The position numbers and the translations under genes are program-made. A DNA stretch of 64,000 nucleotides from Squalus acanthias (Eukaryota): assembly GCA_030390025.1 (NCBI GenBank), contig CM059432.1, positions 71,054,001-71,118,000 on the forward strand, read 5' to 3'. The notes beneath the pieces are model-generated. The model made no database searches, had not been told where the DNA came from, and saw only the letters and a list, made by a program, of their open reading frames with translations. Positions 1 to 51,891 of this stretch are shown here, one piece after another (the stretch's first letter is position 1; each line of letters begins with the position of its first letter).

Positions 1-830
1 AACCAGGGCTCTGAGGCTGGAGACATTTGTAGGATCTCACAGATGGTGGCACACAAATGCATAGGCCAGGGCTGCCAATTATGTCAACTTTGCCTGCGAT
101 GACACCAGTCAGAATGAGCGGGTGATTGGGATTGCGGCTCTCGCTGGCTTCCCACAGGTGCAGGGTGTCATCGACTGCACACATGTGGCAGGTAAGGCAC
201 CCCCGCATCACCCAGGAGCACTCGTCAACTGCAAAGGCTTCCACTCCATCAATGTGCAGCTGGTGTGCAACCACAAAAAGATCTTTATGCAGGTGTGGGC
301 AAGATTCCTGGGCAGCTGCCATGATACTTTTGTCCTGTGGCAGTCCACCCTCCCTGATCTCTTCGCACCTGGAAACAGAGTTACCGGCTGGCAACTTGGA
401 GACAAGGGATACCTACTTAAAACATGGCCTCTTAGAAACCCGAGGTATAAGGCCCAAGAGCGATACAATGAATGCCACATCACCACCAGATGTGTCATCG
501 AACAAGCCATCAGCATGCTGAAGATGAACTTCAGGTGCCTGGACAGATCTAGAGGCACCCTTCAGTACGTATCAGCCAGGGTCTCCAGAATGGTCGTGGT
601 GTGCTGTGCTCTGCACAACATTGCGCAACAGCAAGGTTTGGACCTGCAAGAGGAGCAAGGTGCAGAGCGCAGTGCCTCTTCAGACAGTTCCGAGGAGGAG
701 GAGGAGGAGGTGGAGGAGGAGGAGGAGGAGGAAGACAAGGAGGCGGAAGGTGATGCGGCAATGCATCACCAGCAGCGCACATTACTGCCCGGGATGCCTG
801 GGCCCCCTCATTATTGCGTGGTTCACTTAG
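1..830 (+). pseudogene. HARBI1-like DDE transposase, degenerate
   Basis: ORF 122-853 contains [48 protein letters not shown] and CCALHN, plus an acidic tail. The native C-terminus (IIAWFT*, stop at 830) is in another frame. Confidence 0.9.
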
Positions 831-1154
831 GTTCCACCAGTGCACCCATCTAACAACCACATGCAAAAGCCACTTTTGCAGCCCCCCCTCTCCCCCCCAA
901 TGCTGCTAACACAAAGCAGTCCTGAAAATAACCAACCATCCCTTTCACAGCCCCACATTAGTTGCTGTCAATTCATGTCTCCCATTCATCATTGTACAAC
1001 TGAAAAGGCCACTTGCCAGCCAGCAAACAAGAATGGGCAAGAAGGGAAAGTAGTGCAAAAGAATAATATTTATGTGCTTCAAATAGACAAAAGAAACTCA
1101 ACAAGAGAACAACATCACAATGTGCAACACACTCATGTGCATAACCTGGTGCAA

Positions 1155-2959
1155 CTACAAATCTTTACTCTTCCTTTTCCTAGCGCTTCTATGTGGTGCT
1201 ACCCCTGTGGCTTCAGCAGAGGTAGAGGCAGGCCGCTCAGATCCCTGCTCTGACTGTTGAGTTGCTCTTGGCTGATGTCCTCTGGGTTTTGGAGCTCATG
1301 AGGGCCCCTCCAAAGATTGCTCCACCTGCACCTCTGCAGGGGCAGACTCGGCCATCGGGACACAAGGCAGCATGTCGGGTACTGATTGATGTGGAGGCAA
1401 TGGGTGGGAAGTGGATGCGCTTTGAGCCAAGTCCCCACTTCTATGTCCCCTTTCACCATCATCCCTCTCATGGCCCAGCCGCACTTCGCTGCTAGCAATG
1501 AGCTGGAGAACACTTTGCTGCAGATCAGTGGGGCGATGAATGGCCAAGGCTAGGGCATCATTCATACTATTTAAGGTGGCATTCAGAGTGTGCAAGCCAT
1601 TGTTGAAGGCCTGCATGCACTCGTGTGATTGCCGCGTTTAATGCTCTATGCAGGTGGCCACTCTTTCCATGGAAGAAGACAACATCGCAAAAGCCTGCGA
1701 CATCATGCCACTCATACTTGAGACGGACTGCTCCAATCTCTCTGCAATCGTGCACAGTGCGCTTGGAATGCCTACCAGTACATCGCACATTCTCTGCTGC
1801 TGCTCAAGTAGTATCCTGTTCATCGATGGCCCCCGAAGTACTGCCTCTATGTCCAGTTGAGCAGAGCTTGAAGAGTCCTGAGCACTCCGATGTGGACTCT
1901 CCACTGCTGTCCCTGACTCCACCATCCGCTCTTGCTCACTTGTGAAGTGCGAGTCACCAGGTGAAAACCCAATTATCTCTGTAACTGGTCCCACCGAAGT
2001 GAGAGTATCTGAGCTGGTGCATGGTCTGCATTAGTCCTATGATGGCGCACCCTCAGAAGGATTGAGCTCCTCTGAGGAGTCGTCGTCGAGGTCGACCTCG
2101 GCCACCTCCTGATGGATGCGGGAAAGCCCTGTGGGAGATAAAAGACATGAAGGAGTACTGTCAAGGTAAGAATGCTTGAAGTTATCATTATGCACATGAT
2201 CATGTTTCAGTTGCTGTTGACAGCAAGTCAAACTAACTGAGTGTTGTATGCCATGTTGCTGCCTGATATTTACTTCTGTCACCAGGTAGCTGGAATGCCC
2301 CCATCTCTGATGGGCAGGCTCGCCAAGACTCCACTGATCTCCAGTGCCTCCTCCTCAACAGGTGTTAGTTGCAAGATGGTTGGAGGGCCACTTCTGGTTC
2401 TCTGCCTCTCCCTGGTGTTCAATGTTCTCTTCTCCTGGATGGAGGGAAAGAAGACACCTATGAGTGAAAATAATGGCATGTGTTCACCTGATAGATGGGG
2501 AACATTTGTTGAGAGTAACTATGAGGGATAGGCATGACATTGCATAAGGATGAGTGTCAGTGGTGGATGGATAGATGGGGAGGTGAGTAAGTGCATAGAC
2601 AGAGAGGGATGGGTGCACCTGCAAGGTAATTTGGTGTGAGGAGTGATGTGCTGGAGTAGGCTTGCGGGGTTAGGGTGATACACACAGCAGGATATAGGGC
2701 AATGTGCCATTGCTCACATCTTTCCTGCCCTGCTTAGGTCATTGAAGCGCTTCCTGCATTGGATCCAGGAGTGTGGCACCACGGTCCTGCTGCAGAGCTC
2801 CTGGGCAACCTCCAACCACACCTTCTTTGTGTCAGCAGCAGGCTTCTTCCTCCGGTCACTAGTGAAGTGTATCTCCTTCCAGGTCCTTACAGCCCCCAAC
2901 AGCACATCCAGAGAGGTGTCGCTGAAGCAGGGTGCAGCCTTTGCCCATCTTGACTCCAT
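1155..2959 (-). pseudogene. Harbinger Myb/SANT-like DNA-binding gene, 3 exons, degraded
   Basis: Exon 1 (2959 to about 2720) reads APCFSDTSLDVLL...WLEVAQELCS...WIQCRKRFNDL. Exon 2 (about 2435-2283) reads EKRTLNTRERQRTRSGPP. Exon 3 is split across ORFs 1638-1994, 1296-1616 and 1199-1513. Confidence 0.85.
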
Positions 2960-3473
2960 TGCAACTCCAACTGCTTCAAATTGCATGCTTGCAGTATCCC
3001 TTTAAATGCTGTCCTGATTGTGTCATCACGGCCACTGACGCTAATTGGACGGGAAACCCGGAGGTAAAATGAGAAGTAAAATGAGTTAAAAAGCCACTGA
3101 CAGGCGCGCTGCACTTACATCTGGGTTTTTCATAAGCTATCATGTCCCCCCCACACCAGCTCCCAGAGCATCTGCGAATTAAAATCCAGCCCATGCAGTT
3201 CATTTTTAAATTTACCTTTTAAAGGCTGTTTGTTGTAAATATTTCTTTCTTGGTACAAATGCAATTCTCCAAATAAATGTAACCAATTAAAATACAGTTA
3301 TATTTCAGAAATCAGATTACAAGGTTCTTTACAATCAGAATACACAGTGACGTTAGTCAGAGAGATACTCCTCTTTAGTAAACATCAAAACTACTCAAGA
3401 AAGTATTTAAAAAAATGAACGCTGACCATTTATTTCCCAAGGAATACTTAACACCACAGGTACAAGTACCAAT

Positions 3474-4555: not shown

Positions 4556-4704
4556 GTGAACAACATGAATGAAAGCAACCCGCAACCCCAAAGCCGGCCA
4601 AGGCAGCAATGAGGGTTGATCTTGCTCTCCAGCCACACCCTGCTCATTGGAGCCTTGAATCTCAGCCTGGAGAGACCTGTGACTACATTTTCCAGCCAAG
4701 GACT

Positions 4705-6571: not shown

Positions 6572-6732
6572 GAGGTGTGATGAAATGTTGGTCAATTTTT
6601 TATTAAAGGCCGAGGTTCGTATTCAAACTTTTGTTTAGTGTTTTGGACATTATCTCCAGTTTGTGAGAGCCAGTTATGTTAATGAATGATTTTTTGTGTC
6701 TGTTTCTTTAGTTTGAAGAAATGACACACACA

Positions 6733-7585
6733 GGGCTGGATTTTCAATGACCCGTGGAGTCGGGTTTGGAGGCGGGCGGGGGGGGGGGGGGGTTAAAGTT
6801 GGAGATTTGGGGGTCCCGACCCCATCCCGCCTCCAACCCGCCTCCATGCCAGTTTCTCTGGCGATGGGTACCCGACCTGTGCTGAGACCCGACTCCCCGA
6901 GGCGGGAAGGGATTAGTGACAATTAACTGCCTGTTAACAGGGAGTTAACAGGCAGTTTTTTGCATAATCCCTATTTTAAAAAGAAAAGTGTGGGCTTCCC
7001 GACAGGTGGCAACCACGCCAAGTTATCGGGGCGGGCCGTGGGTCTGCAGGGGTTGGAGGGGTCGATATGTCCGGTGGGCAGGTGAGTGATGGGTGCATGT
7101 GTGCAGAGGTAAGTGTGTAAGGTAAGTGCTAAGTGTTGGAAAAAGTTTTACTTACCTTAACTTCCTCCTGCAGGTGTCAGCCCTTCAGTTCTCGGGAGTT
7201 AGAAATCTCACCGGCACAGAAAGCAGGAAAGCTGTGGTTCTGTCAAAAACTGCAGCCTTCTGTTTTCTGTGGTGGAATGATTTCTAACTCAGCCTGAGAG
7301 GAAGGACTGAAGTTAGAAATCATATTGTGAGTGTTTGACAGCTTCACAGAGCTGTCAAACGCTGATATTTCATCTGTCAAAAGCTCTTGACAGATGAAAT
7401 GTCAGTCTGTGACGTCACCTGTTGCCGGGTGGCCCTTAATTGGCCTGCTGAGCCCACTGGGCGGGCTCAACAAGGTCAATCAAGGGAAAATACAGTGGGT
7501 TGGCCACATCTCGATGGAGGCGGGTTCACAAGCCAGAATGTATGATTCCCGACCCCAACCCGACCCCAGTTTCAAAATCCAGCCC
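6733..7585. mobile_element. Harbinger-type MITE, family M1, inserted in H2
   Basis: 12-bp TIR GGGCTGGATTTT / AAAATCCAGCCC with TSD ACA. The empty site is visible in paralog H4 at about 17900-17926. Confidence 0.93.
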
Positions 7586-7732
7586 ACAGAGTTTGTAAAA
7601 TAAAAAAGTTTTTGTAATCAAAATGTATAGGTTTGGCCTTTGGAATCATTGCTGCCTTGGCCGGCTTTGGGGTTGCGGGTTGCTTTCATTCATGTTGTTC
7701 ACCATGCCAGAAGCCATTTCCTCAGTAGGGGC

Positions 7733-8890
7733 CTAGAAGCGGCTTGTTATGAGCCGTTGACGGACGGCCCTTGCAGTTTGAACATTGTGGGCCTCCCTTC
7801 TGCCTTGGTGCTGCTGCTGATCCTCCTCCTCTTCTTCCTCCTCCTCTTCCTCCTCCTCCTCCGGTGGTGCTCCAAGGCCTGGTGGCATTGGCTGGGTCCT
7901 GAGGATTGCCAGGTTATGAAGCATGCAGCACACAACTATGAAGAGGGAGACTCGCTCAGGTGAGTACTGCAGGGCTCCTCCTGAGTGGTCCAGACAGCGG
8001 AGCCGTTGCTTGAGCACGCCGATCGTCTGCTCAATGATGTTCCTGGTGGCGAGATGGCTCTCATTGTACCGCAGCTCAGCAGGGGTGTTGGGGTTATGGA
8101 GCGGTGCCATCAGCCAGGTGCACAGTGGACAACCCTTGTCCCCGAGGAGCCAACCACTTGGCTGATGCGGTGCCTGGAATAGTTCTGGCACAGCAGTCTG
8201 GCGCAGGTTGAAAGCATCGTGGCTGCTGCCAGGATAGCGGGCATTGACAGCGAGTATCAGCTGTCTGTGGTCACAAACCAACTGGACGTTTAAGGAGTGG
8301 AACCCCTAGCGGTTTCGGAAAACCTCTGCATTCTCATGTGGTGCCCGCAATGTCACATGCGTGCAGTCAATGGCTCCCTGCACCATGGGGAAGCCCGCTA
8401 TCCTCGCAAAGCCCAATGCGCATTCATACTGTTTGGCCCGGGTCATCGGGAAAGAGATGTACTGGCGTCTCCTTTTATAGAGGGCACTTGTGACCTGACG
8501 GATACAGCAATGGACAGCAAACTGGGAGATATTGGCGATGTCCCCAGTAGCTGCTTGAAAGGAGCCACTGGCATTAAAGTTCAGAGCCACTGTGACCTTC
8601 ACTGCCACTGACAGAGACGTCCTGGTCCTCAGTAGAGGCTGCCGATCTGGCTGCAGCAGGTGGCAGAGCTCAGTGACCACCTCCTTGCCGAAGCGCAGTT
8701 GCGCAAACACTGCTCCTCAGACAAATTAATGTAGGAGAATTGTTCCCGGAATACCCTGGGAGGGTAAGGTCTCCTGTGCAGAGGCCTGTTGGCCCTCCTC
8801 TGTCTGGCCATGATTGCCACTCTCTCTCTGCGTCTCTGTTGCCTCCGATTCTGCAGGCGCAGGACAACGCCCCGAATCAGTGCAGCCCCC
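7733..8890 (-). pseudogene. HARBI1-like transposase of H2, disrupted
   Basis: ORFs 8629-8820, 8306-8710 and 7733-8281 together give [49 protein letters not shown] and CCMLHN. There is a frameshift near 8710 and a stop at 8306. Confidence 0.92.
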
Positions 8891-9489
8891 AGAGTCTCTT
8901 GGCAATCGAATTAATGAAGGTCAAATCCAAAAGTACCTGCAAAGTGATGCTCAGTAGCCAAAACTACTTCACACAGCGTTAACTCTATACAGAATTCTCT
9001 CTAGCTCTCTCTCAGAATCTCTCTCTCTGTCAGAATGAGTGGTGCAAAAATATCTACCACAGAAAAAGCCAGGAAGAGGCCGCCTTTAAATAGCGCCGCC
9101 CCAGCCCCTCACCGACTGGGAAACGTTCCAGTCTCCCTGTCGTTGCTTGCAGCAGGCGGAAAGGAGGGGGGTGCCAATCAATATCTGGTCCGGGGCGCCA
9201 CCAGGGCGTTGCACGTTCGACTGATGTCACGATCTGCGGGCGCAGGAGATCGGGGTGGTAAACTTTTGCGCCGCCGCAAAAACTCTAGTCAATTTCGCGA
9301 GCGGCACAAACATCGCTTCGCCCGGGCGCTAGTTACTTTGCGCCTCATTAGTGCCCTCTTAGGGCGCTAACGGGAGGCGCAAACCAACCGAATTTTCCCC
9401 CCAAGCTGCCTTAAAATTAAAGGCTTTGTGACAACTGCTGGGGAAAAAAATCATTGACTTGCATAAGCCAGCAAGTTTACAAGATGGTT

Positions 9490-13684: not shown

Positions 13685-13886
13685 GGCCTCTGAGAAGACC
13701 ACTTGCTCACAGTCCTGGGGGGCACATGGAGATGAAGCAGAGGCAGCAATGGGGACAAGCTGCTCGCAGAGGGAAGAGGAGGAAGCAGAAGAGGAGGAAG
13801 CAGAAGGAAGGAGGCAACCCAGACAGCCCGTTTCTGGCCGGGAGCAGAGGCAGCAAAAGGAGACAAGCTGCTCGCAGAGGGATAAG

Positions 13887-14183
13887 GAAGAAGCAGAAGA
13901 GGAGGAAACAGAAGAGGAAGAAGCAGAAGAGGAGGAAGCAGAAGAGGAGGAAACAGAAGAGGAAGAAACAGAAGAGGAGGAAACAGAAGAGGAGGAAACA
14001 GAAGAGGAGGAAACAGAAGAGGAAGAAACAGAAGAGGAGGAAACAGAAGAGGAAGAAGCAGAAGAGGAGGAAGCAGAAGAGGAGGAAACAGAAGAGGAGG
14101 AAACAGAAGAGGAGGAAACAGAAGAGGAAGAAACAGAAGAGGAGGAAACAGAAGAGGAGGAAACAGAAGAGGAGGAAACAGAA
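13887..14183 (+). repeat. 15-bp purine-rich minisatellite (GAAGAGGARGAARCA), about 20 copies
   Basis: Read directly; it translates as (EEEET/A)n, the expanded acidic tail of the H3 transposase. Confidence 0.95.
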
Positions 14184-14541
14184 GGAAAGAGGCAACTCAG
14201 ACAGCCCCTTTCTGGTCGGGATATCAGGGATCGAATCATCCGCCTGCGGTACCAGTGAACACAACCCTAATTCCCCTTTCAACATTAGTTCCACACCTTA
14301 CCTTTCCTCTGTTACTGACCATCACAGCGTCCTCTTGACCACAATACTGAAATAAAAGCAAACTTTCCAATCTAACTTTATCCATATATGCATCCAATAT
14401 TACATCAAAAAATCAACTAATCACCCTTGTGCATTCCCTTAGTGAGTGTCTTGGGTGTGTCTTTGCCTATCCTAGTGATGTCACACAGTGCTACACCAGT
14501 GGCTGCAGCATGGCTGGTGGAAGGCTGCTGACTTTCAGTGA

Positions 14542-15776: not shown

Positions 15777-16127
15777 GGCCTAGAAATTTGCGTACTTACC
15801 GCTAAGGCCTGTTTCTTGAAAAAAAATGTCGGCCGCATCGCTTCCGCCAGCCTCTGGTGCGGGTCTCTGCGGCCACCATTTTGGTGAGGACCATAGCATG
15901 CCGTTAGCAGCGCTGGCCCTAGAAATGCAAACAGCAGAGTGTGATGTCAGTCATCGTGCAACATTGACTTGACGCCATGCTCTGCAAACTTGGACCTTTG
16001 TGCTGCCTTAAACACTGGGTCCTTGCTCAGAAAAGTGAGTGTACAGCAGACCTACAGAGACGCTGTCAGCGCTACATAAAGGGACACACACATCTTTCAG
16101 GTAAGTTTGCATTTAAGCTTTTGGACT
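15777..16127 (+). mobile_element. Harbinger left-end fragment (related to the H3 left end), interrupted by H4
   Basis: Terminus GGCCTAGAAATTTG; shares AAAGGGACACACACATCTTTCAGGTA...GCTTTTGGACT with 13356-13403. Confidence 0.65.
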
Positions 16128-16615
16128 GGGGGAAAAATTCGGTTGCTTAGCGCCTCCCGTTAGTGCCTCCGGGGAGCGCTAACGGGGCACTAGGAACTTA
16201 GCGCCTGAGCGAGGTGATTTTAGCGCCGCTCGTGAAATTGACCAGACGTTTTGCGGCGGCGTTAAACACTACCACCATGACCTCATGCGCCCGCAGATCG
16301 TGACGTCAGTCGAGCGTGCAACGCCCCGGTAGTGCCCCGGACCGGATATTGAGTCGTGCCCCCTGCCTTTCCGCCTGCCCATAGCAATGATAGGTAGAGG
16401 GGAACGTTTAGCAGTCAGGAAGGGGCTGGGGGAGCGCTATTTAAAGGCGGCCGCTTCCTGCTTTTTCTTGTCGGTGAAATCTTTGCACCACGCATGCTGA
16501 GAGGGAGAGAGACTTCTGGAGAGATTCAATGCTGTGTGAAGGAGTTTTGGGTCCTGAGCAGCACTTTTCAGGTTCATTTTTATTTCACTTTTATTCCAGT
16601 GATTTAGAAGAGACT

Positions 16616-17768
16616 ATGGGGGCTGCACTGACTCGGGGCGTCGTCCTGCACCTGCAGAATCGGAGGCAGCAGAGGCGCAGAGAGAGAGTGGCAAACATGG
16701 CCAGAGGGAGGAGGGTCAACAGGCCTCTGCACAGGAGACCTTAGCCTCCGAGGGTATTCCGGGAGCAATTCTCCTACATTCATTTGTCTGAGGAGCAGTG
16801 TTTGCGCAGGCTGCGCTTCAGCAAGGAGGTGGTCACTGAGCTCTGCCACCTGCTGCAGCCAGATCTGCAGCCTCAACTGAGGACCAGGACGTCTCTGTCG
16901 ATGGCAGTGAAGATCACAGTGGCTCTGAATTTTTATGCCAGTGGCGCGTTTCAAGCATCAACTGGGGACATCGCCAATATCTCCCAGTTCGCGGTCCATT
17001 ATTGTATCCGGGAGGTGACAAATGCCCTGTATAAAAGGAGACGCCAGTACATCTCTTTCCCCATGACCCGGGGCAAGCAGCGCGAATGTGCATGTGGCTT
17101 TGCGAGGATAGCGGGCTTCCCCATGGTGCAGGGCGCCATTGGTTGCACGCATGTGGCATTGCGGGCACCGCATGAAAATGCAGAGGTATTCCGAAACCGC
17201 AAGGGCTACCACTCCTTAAATGTACAGTTGGTCTGTGACCACACACAGCTCATACTCGCCGTCAATGCCCGCTATCCTGGCAGCAGCCATGATACTTTTA
17301 TCCTGCGCCAGACTGCTGTGCCAGACCTTTTCCAGGCACCGCATCAGCCAAGTGGTTGGCTCCTCGGGGACAAAGGGTTGTCCACTCTGCACCTGGCTGA
17401 TGACACCACTCTGTAACCCCAACACCCCTGCCGAGCTGCGGTACAATGAGAGCCATATCGCCACCAGGAACATAATTGAGCAGACGATCGGCGTGCTGAA
17501 GCAATGGATCCGCTGTCTGGACCACTCAGGAGGAGCCCTACAGTACTCACCTGAGTGAGTCTCCCTTTTCATAGTTGTGTGCTGCATGCTTCACAACCTC
17601 GCGATCCTGAGGACCCAGCCAATGCCACCAGGGATTGGTGCACCACCTGAGGAGGAGGAGGAGGAGGTTGAGGAGGATGATCAGCAGCAGCACCAACGTG
17701 GGAGGGAGGTGCACAATGTTGCCAGTGCAAGGGCTGTCTGTGAACAGCTGATAAGAAGCCGCTTCTAG
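16616..17768 (+). pseudogene. HARBI1-like transposase of H4, disrupted
   Basis: ORFs 16529-16744, 16784-17416, 17220-17558 and 17577-17768. Premature stops at 16742 and 17556, a frameshift near 17380, and the first catalytic D changed to G (AIGCTH). Confidence 0.92.
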
Positions 17769-18080
17769 GCCCCGACTGAGAAGATGGCTTCAGGCATGGA
17801 GAACAACATCATGGAAGGCAACCCATACCCCCTATTGCCAGCCAAAGCTGGAATGATTCAAAAGACCATAAATGTAAATTTGGAATACAAAAACTTATTT
17901 ATTTTACGAACTCTGTGTGTATCATTTATTCAGGACAAACAATTAGAAACCAACACAACAAATCATGAACTAACAGAACTCGTTCTCACAAGATGGAGAT
18001 AAACGGCAAAACAGTAAATAAATGTAATCACACGAACCTTGACCTTTACCACAAACATTCCCACCATTTATTTAGACCTC

Positions 18081-19652
18081 CTACTGTTTGCCCTTCGAGG
18101 GTGATCTCCATCCCTTGCGCACTTCCCCCCTTCCCACCCTACTGCTCCTCCGTAATGGGGCCCCAGTGGCTGCAGCAAGGCTGGTGGAAGGCTGCTGAAT
18201 GTCAGATCCAGAGACTGCAGATGCCCTTGAAGGACGCAAGTGCAATGGGGAAGTGCCAGTGGTGGGAGCAGGAATGCTGTCATCCTGAGAGAGGACAGCA
18301 CCTTCCTGCTCGACTGACACACTTGCACTCCCACGGGGCAGTACCTCAGCATCCGGAGCAATCTGCTCGAGCACAGATTGCTGGCCTGCTGCGGCACCGT
18401 GAGAGCCCCGGGGCAATGTGGCCGAACCAGCGACGATGGCAGCAGTCAGTGCTTGCGTTACATCAATCTGAGACTGCATGAGAGCAGTCTGAGACTGGAT
18501 GGCACCCAGCCAGTGACTGAATTGCAGCACTAAGCCGTTGCGTTGCGTCGGCCTGTGCTGCAACGGACTGCTCCACACAATCCTAGCCAGTCCATCCATG
18601 CTTTCGGGCACCCTTGCCATTGCACCCATGAGCTCAGTGTACATGCTCAAGGCCTGGCTATTCATGGCTGCGATGGCGCGGTCCTCATCTGAGTCCTGTG
18701 CAGCAGGACTCGCTGGCCTACTCGCCCTCCGGGGAGATGGCCCCCGAGCTTCCCTACCCCCATGGTGTTGCTGCAGCCCGCTGGGTCCCGGAGCTTCGCC
18801 CTCATCAGACCCTTCCCCCCTGCTCCCCTCCAGGGAAGGCGTGGTCCCAGTGTCGGAATGGGCTCCCTCAGGAGACGCAGGCGGTGAGGCTCCGGCTTCC
18901 TCTTCCTCCTCATCTGGGGTGTCGCTGACACTGGTAGGTTGAGGGACAGGCTGGTCAGCTGGTGATTCACTATCTGAAAGCAGGAAGGTTCAAGAGTGGC
19001 TTTAGCATGAGGACAGGGGGCAGGAAGGGAGCAACAACCGGAGACAGTTAGTAAGTTGGATTGAAAGTGTAAAAGGCTGGTGTTGTGAGGGCAAGTGGTA
19101 TGAGAGAGGAGAGAAAGCTGATGAACATACCATTGCTGTCCCCAAGGGGGTCGACATCTCCAGCGGCCACGGCACCTATGACCTGGCTGGCAACGATCCT
19201 GTGCACTCTCGCCTCCAAATCGGTCAGGGGGTGTAGGTCAGCCGGTCCTCCTCCCGTGCATTGCTGCTCCCGCCTGTTATGAGATAGCTTGGCCTGCAAG
19301 AAAAAGGACGGCGTCTGAGTGAGTGTGCAGCCATGTGCTTGCCTGATTTGCCTCCCATAGTTGAATAGCCCTTAATGTATGCAGCCATGTGCTTGCCTGA
19401 TGTGCCTCCCATAGTTGAATAGCCCTTAATGTATGCAGTCATGTGCTAGTCTGATGTGCCCCCCCATAGTTGAATAGCCCTTAATGTATGCAAGGTGTGG
19501 AATGTGCGTGTGTGTTTTATGAGATGGCCATAGGTCTTGGATGAGTGTTGGGCATTTGGGATTTTTAAACCCTCTGGGCACAGAGTGAAGTTGAGATGGA
19601 GGGATGTAGAGGTATTGAAAAGCAGCTACTGACCCTGACCACCCGAGTGAGG
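18081..19652 (-). pseudogene. Myb/SANT-like gene of H4 (exon 1 mostly deleted)
   Basis: Exon 2 reads AKLSHNRREQQCTGGGP; exon 3 is homologous to 5592-6571 with frameshifts. Confidence 0.85.
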
Positions 19653-20074
19653 TCGCATGCACTTGTTGCTTTCCCGTCCTCCCCTCACCACATCTCCACC
19701 CTTGTGCCTTCCTCAATTCACGCACCCAAGAAATGCAGCCTATACAGCAGTGGTTGACTAAGAAGATGGAGAGGAGAGTGAAGAAGAAGATACACCGTCA
19801 CTCGATTTCACACTCCCAGCCACCAGCACACATTCTGTTCAGTATTAAATGTAGTTTAGAGGAAACTGTATTTTTCAGCTCCCACTCGCTGTAGTAAAAG
19901 AATCACAAACAAAGGATTTAAAATACATATTACAAAGTGATTATGACTAAAGAGCATTCCATGGGAATGCTCCACCTATAAAATGAAAGTTCTGAATCTC
20001 ATTAAAGTTTTGAAATTATTGTGAAATGCCACATCAATAATCTATTCTATACAAGAGAAATAAAAAAGCATATT

Positions 20075-26650: not shown

Positions 26651-27170
26651 TTCTTCTTCCTCCTAAAATTATAAATAAAGGGAGATTCCCACTGCAACAT
26701 CCACTGTCCCAATATTGTGGATATACTAAAAATATGACAGCCCCAGAACATTTTGCACAAAGCTGCCGGACTAAATGGAAATAGGAAAGAAATAACATAA
26801 CAAGAACTTCTTCAGAAATAACCTCAAAATGCTGCTTCGAATCCTGCTGTAGAGCTTTGTGAATGCACTACAGTAAACAGCACACACTAAGGGCTGGATT
26901 TTGCCAGTGTGGGTGGGCTGGGGCGTGTCAGGTGGCATTCGTGTCATGATCCCGACTCCGAAGTGAAGTGGTGAAAAAGTGCGATTTTCCCCTAATTGGG
27001 CAATTGATTTCCAGCGTGTGGGAACCCCTGGCCCAATGAGTCTTTTCATCCAGAATGTCGCCTGCGATGACGTCATCAATGCTGCTGGCTTTAAGGCCTG
27101 CAAGCAGCCTTGCTTCTTCTGGAGACTGCAAATTTTATGGCTATTGTAGTAAGCACTTCATTGATCGACT

Positions 27171-29152
27171 ATGTCCACCAGTAGGCCAAAGTGTGCTCCA
27201 CCCTTCGATGAGCCCTCCCTCCAAGCTCTGGTGGAGGGAGCAAGATCCAATAAGGAGGTGCTCTTCCCTTCCTCAGGGAGAAAAAAGCCACCCCAGCAGA
27301 CTAAAGTTGTGTGGCTGCAAGTGGCCCAGGAGTTCAACTCCATCTCGATGAGCTGCAGAACCTGGCTGCAATGCAGGAAGAGGTTTCATGACCTTCTCCG
27401 CACAGGAAAAGTGAGTATGACTTTCCCATCACCCTCAATCTGATCCCCATCGCCTCTCCTCACCAGCACTCTGCTTTGCCAACCTCTTCCAACACATGCC
27501 ACTTGACACTTACATCCCTGCACCCTTACCCATTCCCTCTCTCTCTATGGTCACATTCACTTAACTATTCGACCATGCAGCCCTCACACTCCCTATCACT
27601 GTGATGCAACGACAACAACTTACAACACACAGGGAGGGTCCTTTGTATCCTTCTAAGCATCTATGCTATGGATTCTCTACACTCACTCCTTCATTCTCAC
27701 TCAAACTCCACTTGTGTCCCTCATTGCAGAAAAAGAGAGCCCACAATAAGAGGGAAAGAGCCATGACAGGAGGAGGGCCACCCTCAGTAGCCCAGCTCAC
27801 CACCTGGGAGGAGGCGGCCCTGGAAATCGCCGGGATCGAGGACGATTCCCAAGTGGGGGACGGACAGACGGGTGCATCACAGCAAGCTGGTGACAGAATA
27901 GTTTGGCATCTCTCTCATTGACATTGCATGAGTCACTGATAATGAATCTGATGCTCTAACAGATTGACTTATGATCATCTGCACTGCAATGTGCATGTAA
28001 CCTTGACCTCACATCTCTAACTCTTTCCTTTACTCCCCCACAGGACCATCGAAAGCCCCCGTTCCCACTGTCCAGGAGGAACAGCCTGAGCCTTCAGACT
28101 CCTCAGAGGAAGCTGCAACCTCTGAGGGCGCAGCATCAGCAGAATTCAGCGCACCCAGCACCAGCGCAGAAACTCACACATCGGTGGGAACATCGCGAGA
28201 TAGAGTAGTGTTGGCACCTGGTGCATCACAGCTCACAAGTGAGCATCAGCAGCTGGTGGAGACATGGACAGCAGTGGAGAGTCCTCATCGGAAGGTGCAG
28301 GACTCTGCCAGCTCGGCTCAGCTGCATGTCGACCCTGTGCCTCCGGGTCCATCCAGCAGGAGAGCGGTGCTGGAACTCCAGGAACAGGTGCAGGAGTCTC
28401 TGGCAGGTTTTGTCTCCAGGGTCGCTGCAAGTGTGGAGCGAATGGAGGAGTCCATCGCAAACATGAGCAGAGCCTTTGTGGAGGCATTGGCACATGAACG
28501 CATCACCGTGGGAAAGATGGCAACCTCCGTGGAAAGGATGGCTACCTTCATGGTAAGGCTGGCTACTGTAGAGGAGAGGATGGCTACGGTAGAGGAGAGG
28601 ATGACTGCGGCCATGGAGGAGCTTAGTCGCCAGGGTCTGGAAAACATGGTCATTGTTCAGAATAGACTGACATCTCTGGAGGAGCGATGGTCAGCTATTG
28701 AGCAGAGAAACCAGACCTTCATGGACGTACTCTGGAGTAGGACTGCCAGTGCAGAAACGGGTCCTCATGGCCCCCCTGCAGTGCAGCAAGGTGCTGTCAA
28801 GCCACTTGCTAGCTCTGAAGTGGGGCTGACCCATGAGAGGGATGTTGGTGGCAGACAACAAGGAAGTGGGGGCTCCTCTCCAAGTGCTCACATGACCATG
28901 CCACTGCAAAGCCCTCGGTCAGAACCCCACCAGAGTCCTCACGCAACTGAGATGGGCGTCTCAGCCCCTGTACAGCCGCAGGAGCAGCAGACTGATACCG
29001 AGCCCTCACAGATTCGCAACCCCAGAGGATGCCCGCCAAAGGTGTCGAGGCAGGAGCAGCATGAAAGTGAGCAAGGGGCCTCCACATCTGCTGAAGCCAC
29101 AGGGGAAGCACCACATAGGAGCACACGTAAGAGGAAGATAATGCACAAGTAG
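27171..29152 (+). CDS. Intact spliced Myb/SANT-like DNA-binding protein with coiled coil, 502 aa; exons 27171-27410, 27730-27889, 28044-29152
   Basis: Splice junctions AAA|GTGAGT, TTGCAG|AAA, CTG|GTGACA and CCACAG|GA have compatible phases (0, 1). The joined 1509 nt have no internal stop. Motifs: APPFDEPSLQALVEG, W..VAQE..., WLQCRKRFHDL, ERAMTGGGPP, and a C-terminal basic stretch RKRK. Confidence 0.8.
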
Positions 29153-29410
29153 TCACAAGGGTAGTCACTTGGGTGCTGTGATGTAATGTTTTTTGAACAG
29201 CCATCCTTGTCATGGTATCATAAACAGATTTGATGGCAAACTGTTGAAGTTGTGGCCTGTGTCATTTCGTAAATGGGACTTCCACATTGAGGGCTTAGGG
29301 TGACTTGCAATTGTCAGTATGGTGGTCAGAGTAATAGGAATCTGCAGGTTCTTGTCCATTGTCGATGGTCTGGTAAGAAGGTGCGAGGCAAAAGTGTCTG
29401 ATTGTGCAGG

Positions 29411-29640
29411 CTAAGCAAATCTGGCCAACATGAGTGCGTCCCTTGCATCCCGGCCAGCAATGTGGTCGCGCGCTGGCGCCTTCTGGCCTGTGCAGCTTCA
29501 GGTGGGTGAGCAGCAGCTTGGCGCGCCTGCTGTTGCTGCTGTTGGTGCTGCTGTTGCTCATGGGTCTGCTGCTGCCGCGGCTGGTCTTCGTCCGAATCTG
29601 ATGTCCAGGAGGAAAGGAAATAAATGTTCGCTATGCTTCT
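29411..29640 (-). pseudogene. Transposase remnant: N-terminus fused to extreme C-terminus, DDE core absent
   Basis: SDSDEDQPRQQQ...AQARRRQR is followed, in another frame, by DHIAGRDARDALMLARFA*, which matches the C-termini of the H1 and H2 transposases. Confidence 0.7.
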
Positions 29641-30395
29641 GGTATATGCCTCAGTTGAGGAAGTGCTCAGACAAGGTGGGGAAAGGGGTTTCCCAGCAGG
29701 TCACACTGGAGATGGGTCTCAGGCTCCAAACTTCCACAACAATGAGTAGGCCTGCTAAAAGCTCCCCCAGACCTGAGACAACAAAGTTCTGCCACCTGCA
29801 AGTGATCATTGGTGAAAACTCCTTTTTAATGGTGGAGCTGCAGCTGCTGGTAAACAATCCACTTGTGAGGCCGCCAGGATTAACTGGCGTGTTCCAGAGG
29901 AGGCGGGTAGGATGGGGGAAATGTCTAAAAATCAGAAAGGCCTCTCAAAATGGGATTATAGAGGCACTTAAGTGGTTGTTAAGGGCTTTAAGGGTCTATC
30001 CCGCCTCTTGGAGGTGGGATGGAAATGGGGTCTGAAAACACGAATGTGGGAAAATTGCTCGGAGGCGGGCTGGAGGCGGGATCGGGCCCGGCCGCCATTT
30101 TTTGCGATTTTGACAACTCACACGCCTCCAAACCCGCCAGAAATCCGGCATAATGCATCTCTGCAAAATTTTCCCATTGGTTCCACCCACTTTTGCCCCA
30201 TTAATCAGATGTAATCAATTGGAAAAGGGCAACGGAGTATAAAGACACATGCTGGGAAATTTCTCAGGGATTTTCCCAATCAGCCATTGTAACTTTGGTA
30301 GAAGATCAGTGGAAATCCTGGAGACAGATATCTTTATTTCGATAAGCAGATTTTCCTCTTTTATATTTGGGCATAAACAATTACACATAGAGGAA

Positions 30396-46199: not shown

Positions 46200-48015
46200 A
46201 GCCGAGATTTCCCTTACCTTGGTGGGTCCGGTGCGGGCGATGTCAATGGCGGGTCTCGACCCCGCTGCTGGCTCCATCCCACTTACCTTAATGGAGCCTA
46301 ATAAGCCCGCTCAGTGCGTTTCCCAGCCCAATTAGAAGGAGTGGGTCTGATGACGTCATTCATGATGCATCTTGAGCCAGTTTCCTTAAAGGGACCATGG
46401 CCACCTTACTTTTGACGTTTGTGCTGTGATTGTTCTACAGCATTGAGGTGCTGCAAACACTGACAAGCACTGCACAATTGTGCAGGGCTGCACCCAGATT
46501 TTCCCATGACTCCCTCCATATGCTTATGGAGGGAGTCACAGCACACAGGAAGGTCCTCTTCCCTTCCCATGGGCGGAAGAGACCTCCCCAATGCAGCCTG
46601 GTTGCATATTGCACAGGAGGGCACAAGCAGGGATGTCATCAAGAGGACCTGGGTGCAGTGGCGCAAACCTTTCAATTATCTCATTAGATCACGAAACGTT
46701 AGTACGAAGCCACACTCAACCTCATCCTGCTGTGCCACTCATCACATCCCCATCACTCTGCCTTGCCTACCCTACTCCTGCACATCCTTACTCACACCAA
46801 ATTACCTTGCACCTCCACCCATCCCTCTCTATCTACATTATCACATCCTCATCTCACTAGCTAACCTTTACACTCACCCTCATCCTAGTGCAATCATACC
46901 AACTAACAACACACAAGGGTAGGCACTTGAAACAACAACAGAAAACGCTGGAAAAACTCAGCAGGCCAGGCAACATCCGTGGAGAGAGAAACAGAGTTAA
47001 CGTTTCAGGACGAAACCTTTCGTTAGAACTGAGAAAAGAGCAGGAAATGAAACAGATAAAAATGCAAGGGGTAGGCACTTGGGTGTTTTAGCCAATGTTC
47101 ATGTAAAGTTTCTGTTAATGTGCTGTCAAACATTGAAATCTTTATTTTCAACACTTCGTGTTCTTGGACAGATTTGTGTGCACCTTTGGAAGAGGCTTAG
47201 TGAGTTGCAGTGAATGGTGAGACATAACGGTACCCCCGCAATGATGGCGAATGTGAAAGGAATAGCTTGGACATTGTAGGGATGCTTTTTGGTGTTGGTG
47301 TGTGGTGGTGCCAACCTGGCACATCATGTGGCAGCCATATGGGTGTACTGCGTCAAGTGAAGTAAATGTGGAGAAGGTTGGTGTTGTTGTTGGTGCTGCT
47401 GGTGTGCCTGGTGCTGCTGGTGTTGGGCTGATCGTGGTGGGATTCTGAGGACCAAGGTGAGACAATATAAAGGCACCCATGTTGATGGAATAGATGGCAG
47501 TTGAAGTAGAGATGACAGAAGCATTCTGTCAATGGTGAGAGAATTCTTCCAATGAGGTAAGAGTGGATGGAGAGTGGAAAGTGGAAAGCCTGCAGAATCT
47601 GTGCTGGAAATGGACTGAGAAACAGCTTGTGGCTGAGGAAAGTGATTATCTGTCAGGTGGGAGCTTTTACTGTACATTTGAAGCTGTCAAGTAATCAGCT
47701 GGAGCAATGGCCACTGAACTCCTGCCTCATGTTGACAGCCGTGGTCCCCGAACAGTGTGCTTTCCATGGCCATGCAGTTAAAGGCAAAAGATTAGTTAAA
47801 AATGCCTGTTAAGGATCTGTTAAGTAGATGCTAATGCTTTGAATTGGGTCCCCTGCTGTAGCCGCTCGAGTCTGCTCAGCACTGACAGACCCGACATTGG
47901 GAAAGGTGCATTGCGGCGGGTTGACAGCGGGTTCCTGACCCACTGTCAAAAAAAAATATTTTCCGCCCCAACCCACCACCAATCCCGTCCACTAACCCCC
48001 TGCAAAATCTTGGCC
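46200..48015. mobile_element. Deleted Harbinger H6, inserted in the L2
   Basis: TIR AGCCGAGATTT / AAATCTTGGCC with TSD AAT. Myb exon-1 relic APRFSHDSL...RTWVQWRKPFNYL on +; a Q-rich transposase N-terminal relic on - at about 47370-47480. Confidence 0.8.
46931..47064 (-). mobile_element. Penelope-type terminal fragment (P2) with a degenerate hammerhead
   Basis: The minus strand reads GTT-CTAACGA-A-AGG-TTTCGT-CCT-GAAACGTT-AAC (46996-47029). It is flanked by the near-perfect duplication CAAGGG(G)TAGGCACTTG. Confidence 0.6.
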
Positions 48016-49201
48016 AATGGTTTTGTTCTTCCCAATATTTAATGGGAGGAAATTTCTGCTCATCCAATACTGGATCTTGGACAAGCAGTCTGACAATTTA
48101 GAGACAGTGGAGGGGTCGAGAGAGGTGGTGGTGAGGTAGAGCTGGGTGTCGTCAGCATACATGTGGAAACTGATGCTGTGTTTTTAGATGATGTCTCCAA
48201 GGGCCAGCATGTAGATGAGAAATAGGAGGGGGCCAAGGATAGATCCTTGGGGGACACCAGAGGTAATGATGCGGGAGCAGGAAGAGAAGCCATAACAGCT
48301 GATTCTCTGGCTACAACTGGAAAGATAAGAATTGAACCAGGCGAGTGCAGTCCCACCCAGCTGGACGACAGTTCAGAGGCATTGTAGGAGGATGGTGTGG
48401 TCATCCGTGTCAAACGCTGCAGATAGGCCGAGAAGGATGAGGAGGGATAGTTTACCATTGTCACAGTCACATAGGATGTCATTTATGACTTTGATAAGAG
48501 CCGTTTCAGTACTGTGGCAGGGGTGGAAACCTGATTGGAGGGATTCAAACATGGAATTCTGGGAAAGATGGGCACAGATTTGGGAGGTGACAACACGTTC
48601 AAGGGCTTTGGAGAGGAAAGGGAGGTTGGAGATGAGGTGATAGTTTGCAAGGATAGAGGGGTCAAGGGTTGGCTTTTTTGAGGAGAGGTGTGATGACAGC
48701 AGATTTGAAAGAGAGGGGGACAGTACCTGAGGGTAGAGAACTGTTAACGATATCAGCTAACATGGGCGCCAGGAAGGGAAGTTGGGTGGTCAGCAGTTTA
48801 GTGGCAATAGGGACGAGGGAGCAGGAGGTGGGTCTCATGGACAAGATGAGCTTGGAAAGGGCATGAGGGGAGATCGGAGAGAAACTAGAGATGGATACGA
48901 GTTTAGGACTAGGGCAAGAGGAAGTTTGGCCTGGTGAGCTGGGGAAGGGAGGGAAGCGGTAGAAGCAGCTGAACGGATGGTCTCAATCTTAGTGACAAAG
49001 ATGTCCATGAGCTCCTCGCACATTTTATTGGAGGTGAGGGTGTTGGAAACAGGGGAGAGGGGTTTAAGAAGATGTTTTGCTGCTGAGAAAAGAAGCCGGG
49101 GGGTTATTCTTACATTCCAGTATGATCCTGGAATAGTGAGCAGTTTTGGCAGATGAAAGCTTTATGTGAACCAGCCAGATCTGGCCATGAATAGGGTCAT
49201 A

Positions 49202-51891
49202 GGGCTCGATTTTGCCATTGGGGTCGGGCGGGCCGTGTCAGGTGGTTTTCGTGTCAGGACCCCGACTCCGATGTGAAGTAGGAAAAAAGTGCGATTTTCC
49301 CCTAATTGGGCACTTGATTTCCAGCGTGTGGGAACCCCTGGCCCAATTAGTCTTTCCATCCTGAAAGTCGCCTCCGATGATGTCATCAGTGCTGCTGGAT
49401 TTAAGGCCTGCAAGCAGCCTTGCTTCTTCTGGAGACTGGAAACGCTTTGGACATTGTATGAAGGACTTCATTTACTGACCATGTCCACCAGCAAGCAAAA
49501 GTGTGCACCTCGCTTTGATGAGCCCTTCCTCCAAGCTCTGGTGCAGGGAGCAAGATCTAATAAGGAGGTGCTCTTCCCTTCCTCAGGGACAAAAAAGCCA
49601 CCACAACAGACTAAAGCTGTGTGGTTGCAAATGGCCCAGGAAGTCAATGCCATCTCTATGTGCCGCAGAACCTGGCTGCAGTGCAGGAAAAGGTTTCATG
49701 ACCTTCTCCGCACAGGAAAAGTGAGTATGACTTTCTCATCACCCTCAATCTCATCCCCATCGCCTCTCCTCGCCAGCACTCTGCTTTGCCAACCTCTTCC
49801 TCCACATCCCACTTGACACTGACATCCCTGCACCCTTACCCATTCCCTCTCTCTCTATGGTCACATTCACTTAACTATTCGACCATGCAGCCCTCACACT
49901 CCCTATCACTGTGACGCAATGACAACAACTTACAACACACAGGGAGGGCCCTTTGTCTCCTTCTAAGCATCTATGCTATGGATTCTCTACACTCAAACTC
50001 CACTTGTGTCCCTCATTGCAGGAAAAGAGAGCCCACAATAAGAGGGAAAGAGCGATGACAGGAGGAGGGCCACCCTCAGTAGCCCAGCTCACCACCTCGG
50101 AGGAGGCGGCCCTGGAAATCGCCGGGATCGAGGAGGATTCCCAAGTGGGGGAACGGACAGGCGGGCACATCACAGCAAGCTGGTGACAGAATAGTTTGGC
50201 ATCTCTCTCATTGACATTGCATGAGTGACTGATAATGATTCTGATGCTCTAACAGATTGACTTATGGTCATCTGCACAATTCAATGTGCATGCAACCTTT
50301 ACCTAACATCTCTAACTCTTTCCTTTACTCCCCCACAGGACCATCGAGAGCCCCCGTCCCTACTGTCCAGGAGGAAGAGCCTGAGCTTCCAGACTCCTCA
50401 GAGGAAGCTGCAACCTCTGAGGGCGCTCCGTCAGCAGAATTAAGCGCAACCTGCACCAGCGCAGACACTCACACCTCAGTGGGACCTTCGTGGCATAGAG
50501 TAGAGTTGTCACCTGGTGTATCACAGCTCACAAGTGAGCATCAGCAGATGGTGGAGACAGGGACAGCAGTGGAGAGTCCTTGTCGCAGCGGAGAGGACGC
50601 TCCCAGCTCGGCTCCGCTGCATGTCGACCCTGTGCCTCCGGGTCCATCCAGAAGGAGAGCGGTGCTGGAACTCCAGGAACAGGTGCAGGAGTCTCTGGCA
50701 GGTTTTGTCTCCAGGGTCGCTGCGAGTGTGGAGCGAATGGAGGAGTCCATCGCTAACATGAGCAGAGCCTTTGTGGAGGTGTTGGCGCATGAACGCATCA
50801 CCACGGAAAGGATGGCAACCTCCTTGGAAAGGATGGCTACCTCCATGGTAAGGCTCGCTACCTCCATGGTAAGGCTGGCTACCGTAGTCACTTGGGTGTA
50901 ATGTTGTGTTTAATTTTGAAAAGCTATCAGTTGCTCATTGTCATAAAAAATTCTGATGGCAAACTGTTGCAGTTGTGGCGTGTGTCATTTCGCTAATGTG
51001 ACTTCCACATTGAGGGCTTAGGGTGACTTGCAATTGTCAGTATGGTGATCAGAGTGATAGGAATCTGCAGGTTCTTGGCCATTGTCGATGGTCTGAAAAG
51101 AAGGTGCGAGGCAAAATTGTTTGATTGTGCAGGCTAAGCAAATCTGGCCAAGATGAGTGCGTCCCTTGCATCCCGGGCAGCAATGTGGTCGAGCGTTGGC
51201 GCCTTCTGGCCTGTGCAGCTTCAGGTGGGTGAGCAGCAGCTTGGCGCTCCTGTTGTTGCTGCTGCTGTTGGTGCTGCTGTTGTTCATGGTTCTGCTGCTG
51301 CCACGGCTGGTCTTCGTCCGAATCTGATGTCCAGGAGGAAAGGAAATAATGGTTCCCATGCTTCTGGTATATGCCTCAGTTGAGGAAGCGCTTAGTCAAG
51401 GTGGGGGAGAGGGGTTTCCCAGGAGGTCACACTGGAGGTGGGTGTCAGGCTCCAAACTTCCACAACAATGAGTAGGCCTGTCTAAAAGCTCCCCCAGACC
51501 TGAGACAACAAAGTTCTGCCACCTGCAAACGATGATTGCTGAAAACTCCTTTTTAATGGTGGAGCTGCAGCTGTTAGTAAGCAGTCCACTTGTGAGGCCG
51601 CCAGGATTCACTGGCGTGTTCCAGAGGAGACGTGCAGGACGTGGAAAAAGTGGGAAAATCAGAAAGGCCTCTCAAAATGGGATTATAGAGGCACTTAACT
51701 GATTGTTAAGGGCCTTAAGGGCCTATCCCGCCTCTTGGAGGCGGGATGGAAATGGGGTCAGAAAACACGCATTTGGGAAAATTGCTCGGAGGCGGGATGG
51801 TGGCGGGATCGGGCCCGCCCGCCATTTTTTGTGATTTTAACACCTCACACGCCTCCAATCCCGCCTCCTCGGGCCTGGCAAAATTGAGCCC
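49202..51891. mobile_element. Myb-only Harbinger element H7, paralog of H5
   Basis: TIR GGGCTCGATTTTGCCA / TGGCAAAATTGAGCCC with TSD ATA; inserted into the 3' tail repeat of the CR1. Confidence 0.93.
49481..50901 (+). pseudogene. Myb/SANT-like gene of H7
   Basis: Exon 1 (49481-49720) is open. Exon 2 (from 50022) has a +1 insertion near 50152. Exon 3 is truncated at about 50887 by a deletion. Confidence 0.85.

What the first reader, a model, noticed from the sequence alone, without database searches (positions are those of the whole stretch)
26891..30175. Transposase-less Harbinger family that keeps an intact 502-aa Myb/SANT gene
Seen: H5 encodes a fully open 3-exon Myb/SANT plus coiled-coil protein, while its transposase is reduced to a roughly 230-bp N/C-terminal fusion. 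A diverged second copy (H7, with clean TIRs and TSD ATA) has the same transposase deletion junction, so the deleted form itself transposed. Established: Harbinger transposition needs both the nuclease and the Myb-like protein, which binds the element ends. Inference: this is a semi-autonomous class that supplies its own end-recognition subunit and borrows the nuclease in trans. Alternatively it could be a regulator or a domestication substrate, as with NAIF1/MSANTD-type genes. This is the best candidate for an under-described system in the window.
Basis: partly seen in the sequence, partly recalled or inferred. Interest (0 to 1): 0.75.

Follow-up and report, generated by a model that had tools for sequence, protein, structure and literature searches.

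The report
Transposase-deleted Harbinger keeping its Myb gene
This is a repeated jumping-gene copy that has lost the middle of its cutting enzyme but still carries an open gene for its DNA-binding helper; it likely moved by borrowing the enzyme from complete relatives, the helper gene is likely open here by chance, and the same arrangement is already published in sea kraits and a nematode.

Summary
Observation largely confirmed. H5 has an open 3-exon, 502-aa Myb/SANT gene and a 224-bp out-of-frame join of the two ends of a Harbinger transposase. The junction (29469/29470) is fixed independently by public contigs that run on into transposase sequence. H7 shares the junction, has clean TIRs, TSD ATA and unrelated flanks, so the deleted form transposed.

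H5's own substitutions look neutral (5 synonymous of 20; 24% expected), and two hit conserved Myb residues. An open frame is expected by chance in about 8-15% of copies at 1.5-2% decay. Exon 1 dN/dS between copies is 0.23, but the pair is mosaic, so that selection cannot be placed after transposase loss. Splicing was not seen (inconclusive).

Myb-only Harbinger derivatives are published in sea kraits (452 intact copies) and C. inopinata. The scan noted a like element elsewhere in this genome (e1-9991115).

Verdict: new shark-lineage member of a known kind; semi-autonomy unproven; domestication of this locus unlikely.

The parts
26888..26890 (.). Left target triplet TAA of H5 (not repeated at the right end)
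26891..26906 (+). Left TIR of H5; first 12 nt identical to the end of two-gene element H1 (ends 3192) and to MITE 6733-7582
   Evidence: read depth rises here in run X3
27171..27410 (+). Myb gene exon 1: Myb/SANT trihelix domain, 80 aa; private changes R11P and V55F at conserved columns
27411..27729 (+). Predicted intron 1 (GT..AG); part of the low-divergence block H5 vs H7
   Evidence: splicing not observed
27730..27889 (+). Myb gene exon 2
27890..28043 (+). Predicted intron 2 (GT..AG)
   Evidence: same position in H1
28044..29152 (+). Myb gene exon 3: low-complexity region, 7-residue repeats (possible coiled coil), basic C-terminus, stop
29411..29469 (-). Transposase C-terminal remnant (last ~19 codons and stop)
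   Evidence: matches C-termini of P0024, P0007, P0003, P0014
29469..29470 (-). Deletion junction (+/- a few nt); about 330 codons incl. the DDE core missing (size inferred from ~408-aa relatives)
   Evidence: loose end before 29470 in 24 X3 contigs; X16 piece 7 ends at 29470 from the other side
29470..29634 (-). Transposase N-terminal remnant (~55 codons, acidic then Q-rich); ATG lost in H5
   Evidence: matches N-terminus of P0014, E 1e-12 in a 120-protein set
29635..30136 (-). Transposase 5' / right subterminal region
   Evidence: 8.5% different from H7 over 29617-30136
30137..30175 (.). Degenerate or replaced right end of H5; imperfect TIR followed by ATT
49202..51891 (+). H7: second copy, same junction, clean TIRs, TSD ATA at 49199-49201 and 51892-51894; Myb gene broken (+1 near 50152, ~570-bp deletion at ~50884)
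1..3192 (.). H1: related two-gene Harbinger (transposase +, 3-exon Myb -), cut by the window start, Myb gene has stops; shows the parental layout

Best explanation
[quoted passage not shown] SHOWN: the shared junction, independent insertion sites, an open Myb frame in 1 of 2 copies, high repetition in run X3, and contigs that continue past the junction into transposase sequence. FROM ESTABLISHED KNOWLEDGE (as summarised in PMC13668399, citing Sinzelle 2008): the Myb protein binds the element ends and recruits the transposase, and both proteins are needed. INFERRED: the deletion arose once, probably by interrupted gap repair; the element spread because it kept both ends; both proteins act from a shared nuclear pool, so an element gains little from carrying its own Myb gene; segments were later swapped between subfamilies, which explains the uneven divergence and probably the low exon-1 dN/dS. 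Young copies may well have contributed Myb protein to the pool during the burst, but as a by-product.
For: Junction fixed from both sides. 24 X3 contigs leave H5 before 29470, and their 30-letter consensus, read by hand in the N-terminal frame, gives MEARRRRRYP, like the R-rich..YP motif of H2/H3 and of P0010, P0012 and P0021. An X16 contig matches the C-terminal side up to 29470 and then runs on unlike. H7 has TSD and TIRs, and flanks are unrelated. X3 summed depth is 1.7e5-1.0e6 in 24 bins inside the element against 88-99 in 2 left-flank bins: roughly 200-5,600-fold depending on contig-overlap inflation; not a true copy number. H5-specific letters: 20 coding positions among the 40 rows shown (471 hidden) give 5 syn: 15 nonsyn against 23.6% expected, P=0.80; H7 carries the family letter at 13 of 13 covered positions. 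R11 is R in 14 of 16 and V55 is V in 15 of 16 aligned relatives. Chance of staying open: 15% at 1.5% decay, 8% at 2%, 2% at 3%. Mosaic: break at 27382, permutation P=0.002; exon-1 synonymous 13/53 vs intron-1 11/301, P=3e-6. No such intron dip in the H2/H3 pair and no RNA structure in the block (z -0.14). Myb-less MITE with the same terminus. Precedents.
Against: dN/dS between two junction-bearing copies is below 1: exon 1 0.23 (bootstrap 0.08-0.58), all 307 aligned codons 0.51 (0.32-0.84). If no segment came from an autonomous parent, this is selection after transposase loss. Neutral decay of inserted copies is expected under any model, so it does not exclude selection on master copies. If H5's private divergence is 3-4% rather than 1.5-2%, an open frame is unlikely by chance (0.6-2%). 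The scan found another open copy in this genome (e1-9991115; not checked to be the same family). The private-change test uses only the rows the tool displayed. The share of deleted to undeleted copies could not be read.
Confidence: 0.7

Rival explanations
1. Semi-autonomous division of labour: the deleted family is kept by selection as the main source of Myb protein, while rarer elements supply the nuclease. A cis advantage (own transcription opening the ends, or Myb being limiting) favours masters with an intact gene.
For: Exon-1 dN/dS 0.23 between junction-bearing copies. The deletion removes only the nuclease core and leaves the whole Myb gene. Family is highly repeated along its whole length. 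Same model proposed, explicitly as hypothetical, for C. inopinata.
Against: Exon 1 lies outside the low-divergence block, so its history differs from intron 1. Exon 3 dN/dS 0.73 (0.41-1.42). H7's gene is dead. Myb-less MITEs with the same terminus moved. In sea kraits transposase-only variants outnumber Myb-only ones, 2263 to 452, so solo-ORF forms arise in both directions.
Confidence: 0.18
2. The Myb gene's DNA is retained for cis reasons: internal sequences or element length help transposition, whatever the reading frame.
For: Internal regions of mPing/mPong promote or inhibit transposition (PMC9921582, abstract). Intron 1 to intron 2 block differs by only 4% against 9-13% around it.
Against: H2/H3 show no such block. 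No RNA structure. H7 lacks 570 bp of exon 3, though whether it moved after that loss is unknown.
Confidence: 0.07
3. H5 is a domesticated or domesticating host gene of the NAIF1/MSANTD type, or a host-kept repressor of transposition.
For: Open 502-aa frame; right end degraded, so probably immobile. X3 holds the same left flank and element end (1 difference in 419 nt). Harbinger Myb genes were domesticated repeatedly, and a related protein is conserved in four ray species.
Against: Not single copy. Private changes neutral and hitting conserved residues. Best database hits to exon 3 are 46-49% identical over about a third of the query, so no close annotated orthologue was listed.
Confidence: 0.03
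4. H5 and H7 come from a segmental duplication, not from transposition.
For: They lie 22 kb apart in the same orientation.
Against: Homology starts at the TIR and ends at the element end; flanks give no alignment at E<=1; H7 has its own TSD.
Confidence: 0.01

Closest known systems
Harbinger-Snek 'solo-ORF' DNA-binding-protein-only variants, Laticauda sea kraits (PMC8437027, 2021; passages read)
   Same: Vertebrate Harbinger; multi-copy variants that encode only the Myb-like protein, attributed to large deletions; 452 intact copies in L. colubrina, 6 in L. laticaudata.
   Different: Different family and host; young horizontally transferred element with 269 intact full copies in L. colubrina; transposase-only variants are more numerous there. 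Here the copies are about 8% apart and mosaic, and no intact transposase was seen in the window.
Harbinger-1M_cIno, Caenorhabditis inopinata (PMC13668399, 2026; abstract and sections 4, 8, 11, 12 read)
   Same: MADF/Myb-only derivative with TIRs and 3-bp TSD that expanded and transposed; 14 of 19 MADF loci intact; the authors propose the same trans-supply model and call it hypothetical.
   Different: Caught moving in the lab, expressed, under 1% diverged, TWA target, about 20 copies, 1.6 kb. Here: vertebrate, 3.3 kb, hundreds to thousands of copies (rough), TSD ATA, activity and expression not shown.
Autonomous vertebrate Harbingers (Harbinger3_DR; Sinzelle et al. 2008, seen only as cited; paper not held) and shark HARBI1-like/Myb-like predicted proteins
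   Same: Two convergent genes, Myb/SANT trihelix domain, short TIRs, 3-bp TSD; H5 Myb 43% identical over aligned positions to H. perlo XP_067827223.1; remnant ends match sawshark transposase P0014.
   Different: DDE core deleted; cannot be autonomous.
NAIF1 and MSANTD1-4 (PMC9392472; passages read)
   Same: Derived from the Harbinger Myb-like gene.
   Different: Those are single-copy, syntenic and under negative selection; H5 is one of many copies, retains transposon ends and shows neutral private change.

Membership tests
PIF/Harbinger superfamily (non-autonomous derivative) | Terminal inverted repeats | tested here: met
   H7 both ends match (14 of the first 16 nt); H5 left end intact, right end degenerate
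PIF/Harbinger superfamily (non-autonomous derivative) | 3-bp target site duplication | tested here: met
   ATA both sides of H7; H5 triplets differ (TAA/ATT)
PIF/Harbinger superfamily (non-autonomous derivative) | Typical TWA target consensus (as stated in PMC13668399) | tested here: inconclusive
   H7 ATA and MITE ACA depart from TWA; H5 left TAA fits; too few sites
PIF/Harbinger superfamily (non-autonomous derivative) | Myb/SANT trihelix gene | tested here: met
   PF13873 above cut-off; three-helix model, pLDDT 80.9; best folds Zeste and GT-1 DNA-binding domains, TM 0.65-0.67, but E 0.1, none at E<=0.001
PIF/Harbinger superfamily (non-autonomous derivative) | Descent from a DDE_Tnp_4 (HARBI1-type) transposase element | tested here: met
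   Both remnant ends match PF13359 proteins of sharks; parent-type continuation at the junction
Autonomous Harbinger | Intact DDE transposase gene in the element | tested here: not met
   224-bp out-of-frame remnant, no DDE hit
Myb-only (solo-ORF / MADF-only) Harbinger derivatives | Myb gene kept, transposase deleted, ends kept | tested here: met
Myb-only (solo-ORF / MADF-only) Harbinger derivatives | Multi-copy, dispersed, same deletion | tested here: met
   2 of 2 window copies share the junction at independent sites; high repetition in X3. Genome-wide share of junction-bearing copies not measured
Myb-only (solo-ORF / MADF-only) Harbinger derivatives | Myb gene transcribed and spliced | tested here: inconclusive
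   None of 15 joints shown (25 hidden) matches a predicted intron; the two runs are only guessed to be RNA and are contigs
Myb-only (solo-ORF / MADF-only) Harbinger derivatives | Mobilised in trans by a partner transposase | not testable with these tools
   Needs an excision assay; inferred from shared junction plus TSD
Domesticated Harbinger Myb gene (NAIF1/MSANTD type) | Single copy | tested here: not met
Domesticated Harbinger Myb gene (NAIF1/MSANTD type) | Negative selection at the locus | tested here: not met
   5 syn: 15 nonsyn private changes; rejects omega 0.23, does not reject 0.5
Domesticated Harbinger Myb gene (NAIF1/MSANTD type) | Conserved synteny across species | not testable with these tools
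   No genome held for the window

The most novel reading that the evidence does not exclude
A vertebrate Harbinger lineage split for good into two dependent halves: an abundant Myb-only family whose master copies stayed under purifying selection on the DNA-binding domain after losing the nuclease, refreshed by segment exchange between subfamilies, and rarer elements that supply the nuclease. With hundreds to thousands of copies it would allow the first population-genetic test of whether a trans-acting transposon subunit can be selected in an element that cannot cut.
Probability: 0.15. Interest if true: 0.6.

Novelty: new member of a known kind. Interest (0 to 1): 0.25.

Why it matters
As it stands the element adds a shark-lineage example to a configuration already reported in sea kraits and a nematode. 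Harbingers were not detected in elephant shark and other cartilaginous fish were flagged as unstudied (PMC9179366, passages), so the family itself looks undescribed in the papers searched. It would matter more if the low exon-1 dN/dS survived a recombination-aware test: the trans-supply model is still called hypothetical by its authors, and a large, older family offers the statistical power that the roughly 20 near-identical nematode copies lack. Such copies are also the raw material from which NAIF1/MSANTD-type genes arose.

Tried and rejected
No whole genome is held, so copies could not be collected; no genome-wide count, tree or dN/dS.

The look-up of sequencing runs: no RNA holder listed; this says nothing on expression. 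Of 24 runs listed, 4 were laid (X3, X16, X17, X22). X16 and X17 are only guessed to be RNA: they gave unspliced pieces across both introns and no splice joint among the 15 of 40 joints shown; inconclusive. X22 (raw DNA reads, another organism) gave 80 reads, 95% running on unlike; only distant relatives, not used.

Exon-1 word search among longer proteins: 27 candidates, none at E<=0.001. phmmer against PDB sequences: 4 chance hits, best E 0.69. Foldseek: no match at E<=0.001.

In-frame N/C fusion protein: rejected, the frames differ. Hidden RNA structure in the conserved intron block: z -0.14. General intron conservation in Harbinger Myb genes: not seen in H2/H3. Empty-site test for H7: only the right flank matched another LINE-like tail (82% over 49 nt); weak. 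Segmental duplication: rejected.

Paper term 'Myb-Harbinger' gave 0 papers; the Pleurodeles paper (passages) describes Myb-bearing Harbingers, not transposase-less ones, so it is not counted as precedent. The coelacanth genome paper (passages) mentions non-autonomous Harbingers without detail. Smith 2012 and Sinzelle 2008 are not held. No supplementary files were read; those of PMC8437027 may describe the solo-ORF structures. Repbase/Dfam could not be searched and may already list this family. Scan look-ups by sequence and by relatives returned nothing.
Full report
OBSERVATION. Exons 27171-27410, 27730-27889 and 28044-29152 have GT..AG ends and give a stop-free 502-aa protein. Exon 1 is a Myb/SANT-like domain (PF13873, E 1.9e-8, 34.6 bits, cut-off 21.7). 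An AlphaFold model from a 17-row alignment shows three main helices (pLDDT 80.9); its nearest solved folds are the Zeste and GT-1 DNA-binding domains (TM 0.65-0.67, E about 0.1, so not significant by E-value). The splice model is backed by homology, not by reads: the spliced protein aligns end to end with an annotated Heptranchias perlo protein (198 of 462 positions), and the two-gene element H1 in this window has three matching exons.

THE TRANSPOSASE REMNANT. On the minus strand 29411-29634 (224 bp) holds an N part and a C part. They match the first 41 and the last 20 residues of a sawshark HARBI1-like transposase, P0014, and the C part matches three more. The junction is fixed independently. 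In DNA run X3, 24 contigs match H5 down to 29470 and then leave it; their 30-letter consensus, read by hand in the N-part frame, continues as MEARRRRRYP, the arginine-rich..YP motif seen in H2/H3 and in P0010, P0012 and P0021. A contig in X16 matches the C side up to 29470 and runs on unlike. So undeleted or less-deleted relatives exist in those samples. Against 408-aa relatives about 330 codons are missing (inferred). The two parts are in different frames and H5 has lost the ATG present in H7, so no fusion protein is expected.

THE SECOND COPY. H7 (49202-51891) aligns to H5 at about 90%, straight through the junction. It has matching TIRs and ATA on both sides; homology stops at the ends and the flanks do not align. 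The deleted form therefore transposed, and segmental duplication is rejected. H7's Myb gene is dead: +1 near 50152 and about 570 bp of exon 3 lost with the stop. H5's own right end is degraded, with TAA on the left and ATT on the right, so H5 probably cannot move now (inferred).

ABUNDANCE. No genome was held. In X3 the summed contig depth is 1.7e5-1.0e6 in the 24 bins inside the element and 88-99 in the 2 left-flank bins. The tool warns that this is no copy number; with and without a 31-fold overlap correction the ratio is about 200 to 5,600. Hundreds to thousands of copies is the fair reading. Flat depth does not give the share of deleted copies, because parents cover both sides of the junction too.

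IS THE MYB GENE SELECTED? At the H5 locus, apparently not. One search showed 40 positions (471 hidden) where most of the family differs from H5; 20 are coding, with 82-100% of X3 depth on the other letter, and H7 has the family letter at 13 of 13 it covers. They split 5 synonymous: 15 non-synonymous against 23.6% expected (P=0.80). This rejects omega 0.23 (P=0.0025) but not 0.5 (P=0.14). Two changes fall on conserved columns: R11P (R in 14 of 16 relatives) and V55F (V in 15 of 16). H5's private divergence is about 1.5-2% if judged from the 31-mer share or from half the low-divergence block, 4% at most from half the overall distance. With the observed indel rate (14 events per 212 substitutions) a 502-codon frame stays open in 15% of copies at 1.5%, 8% at 2%, 2% at 3% and 0.6% at 4%. 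In a family this large an open copy is unremarkable at the lower values.

dN/dS between H5 and H7 is 0.23 in exon 1 (0.08-0.58), 0.78 in exon 2, 0.73 in the shared part of exon 3 and 0.51 overall (0.32-0.84). Both copies carry the junction, so this could be selection after the loss. But divergence is uneven: 10-13% in the 5' part and exon 1, about 4% from 27382 through intron 2, about 9% in exon 3, 4% in the remnant. The break at 27382 is significant (permutation P=0.002), and exon-1 synonymous sites differ at 13 of 53 against 11 of 301 in intron 1 (P=3e-6). One genealogy cannot easily give that. The H2/H3 pair shows no such block and the block has no RNA structure. Segment exchange between subfamilies is the likely cause (inferred), and then exon 1 may carry selection that acted in autonomous parents. 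The question stays open until many copies are compared.

IS AN OWN MYB GENE NEEDED? An 850-bp element at 6733-7582 has the same 12-bp terminus as H5, an ACA duplication and no Myb or transposase hit. H6 is a second, older end-to-end transposase join with another junction and a decayed Myb exon. Deletion of the nuclease core is thus recurrent here, and movement does not need a Myb gene in cis, at least for related ends. The three DDE-bearing elements examined in the window are cut by the window edge (H1) or carry stops and frameshifts (H2, H3), so no donor is identified.

EXPRESSION. Not shown. None of the 15 joints displayed (25 hidden) matches a predicted intron, and two X16 pieces cross the introns unspliced. 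These runs are only guessed to be RNA and are contigs, so this is inconclusive.

MECHANISM. Established for the superfamily (as summarised in PMC13668399, section 4): the Myb protein binds terminal or subterminal DNA, binds the transposase and brings it into the nucleus; both are required. Shown here: one deletion, two independent insertions, parents in the same samples. Inferred: nuclease, and probably Myb too, came from a shared pool; the family spread because it kept its ends; copies decay after insertion; subfamilies exchanged segments. Confidence 0.7. Selected division of labour 0.18, cis-acting internal DNA 0.07, domestication of H5 0.03, duplication 0.01.

COMPARISON. It works like, and by the tested features belongs to, the Myb-only non-autonomous Harbinger derivatives. 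Sea kraits have multi-copy variants that encode only the DNA-binding protein, 452 intact in L. colubrina (PMC8437027, passages). C. inopinata has a MADF-only element caught transposing, and the authors state the same trans-supply model and call it hypothetical (PMC13668399). It is not an autonomous Harbinger and not a NAIF1/MSANTD-type gene (criteria from PMC9392472, passages). I found no paper on such an element in sharks in searches; repeat databases could not be searched. Earlier scan notes on this genome, seen after my own tests, report a like element and a like mosaic elsewhere; they are unchecked and add no independent support.

VERDICT. Real, mostly well observed, and a new member of a known kind. 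Interest 0.25. The boldest reading not excluded, selection on the Myb domain within the nuclease-less lineage, has probability about 0.15 and would merit 0.6.

Noticed in passing
window 46200-48016 (H6): Older Harbinger derivative related to H5: decayed Myb exon 1 at 46484-46691, and a transposase N-terminus joined to the last two codons and 3' region, with a junction different from H5's.
   Followed up: partly
window 6733-7582 and 62595-63390: Non-coding MITE-like pair, 77% alike, with H5-type termini; the first is inserted in element H2 with TSD ACA and contains internal inverted repeats.
   Followed up: partly
window ~51357 (H7) and ~47481 (H6), minus strand: The ATG before the transposase N-terminal remnant is out of frame with it by the same offset in two distinct families, and the predicted sawshark protein P0003 reads that ATG frame while P0014 reads the other. 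Could be a small intron, a frameshift signal or an upstream ORF; unexplained.
   Followed up: no
window 49185-51915: H7 sits in a short ATAGAGTC-like repeat at the end of a LINE-like stretch; TSD ATA is not the textbook TWA. Earlier scan notes report Harbingers favouring CR1 tails in this genome.
   Followed up: partly
protein P0126 and its cluster: A Harbinger-type Myb protein (53% identical to H5 exon 1) clusters at 90% identity across four ray species (Hypanus, Hemitrygon, two Mobula): possibly a domesticated gene.
   Followed up: no
window 4683-9403 (H2) and 16127-19655 (H3): Two copies of a two-gene Harbinger family in opposite orientation, 85% alike, both with broken transposases; H2 intron 1 carries a tandem repeat of about 60 bp.
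   Followed up: partly
window 13748-14244: Long 15-nt GA-rich tandem array, about 22 overlapping family members, open in several frames.
   Followed up: no
window 52065-55627, minus strand: Long open frames with endonuclease (PF14529, PF03372) and reverse-transcriptase (PF00078) hits: a fairly well preserved LINE ORF2 in two pieces.
   Followed up: no
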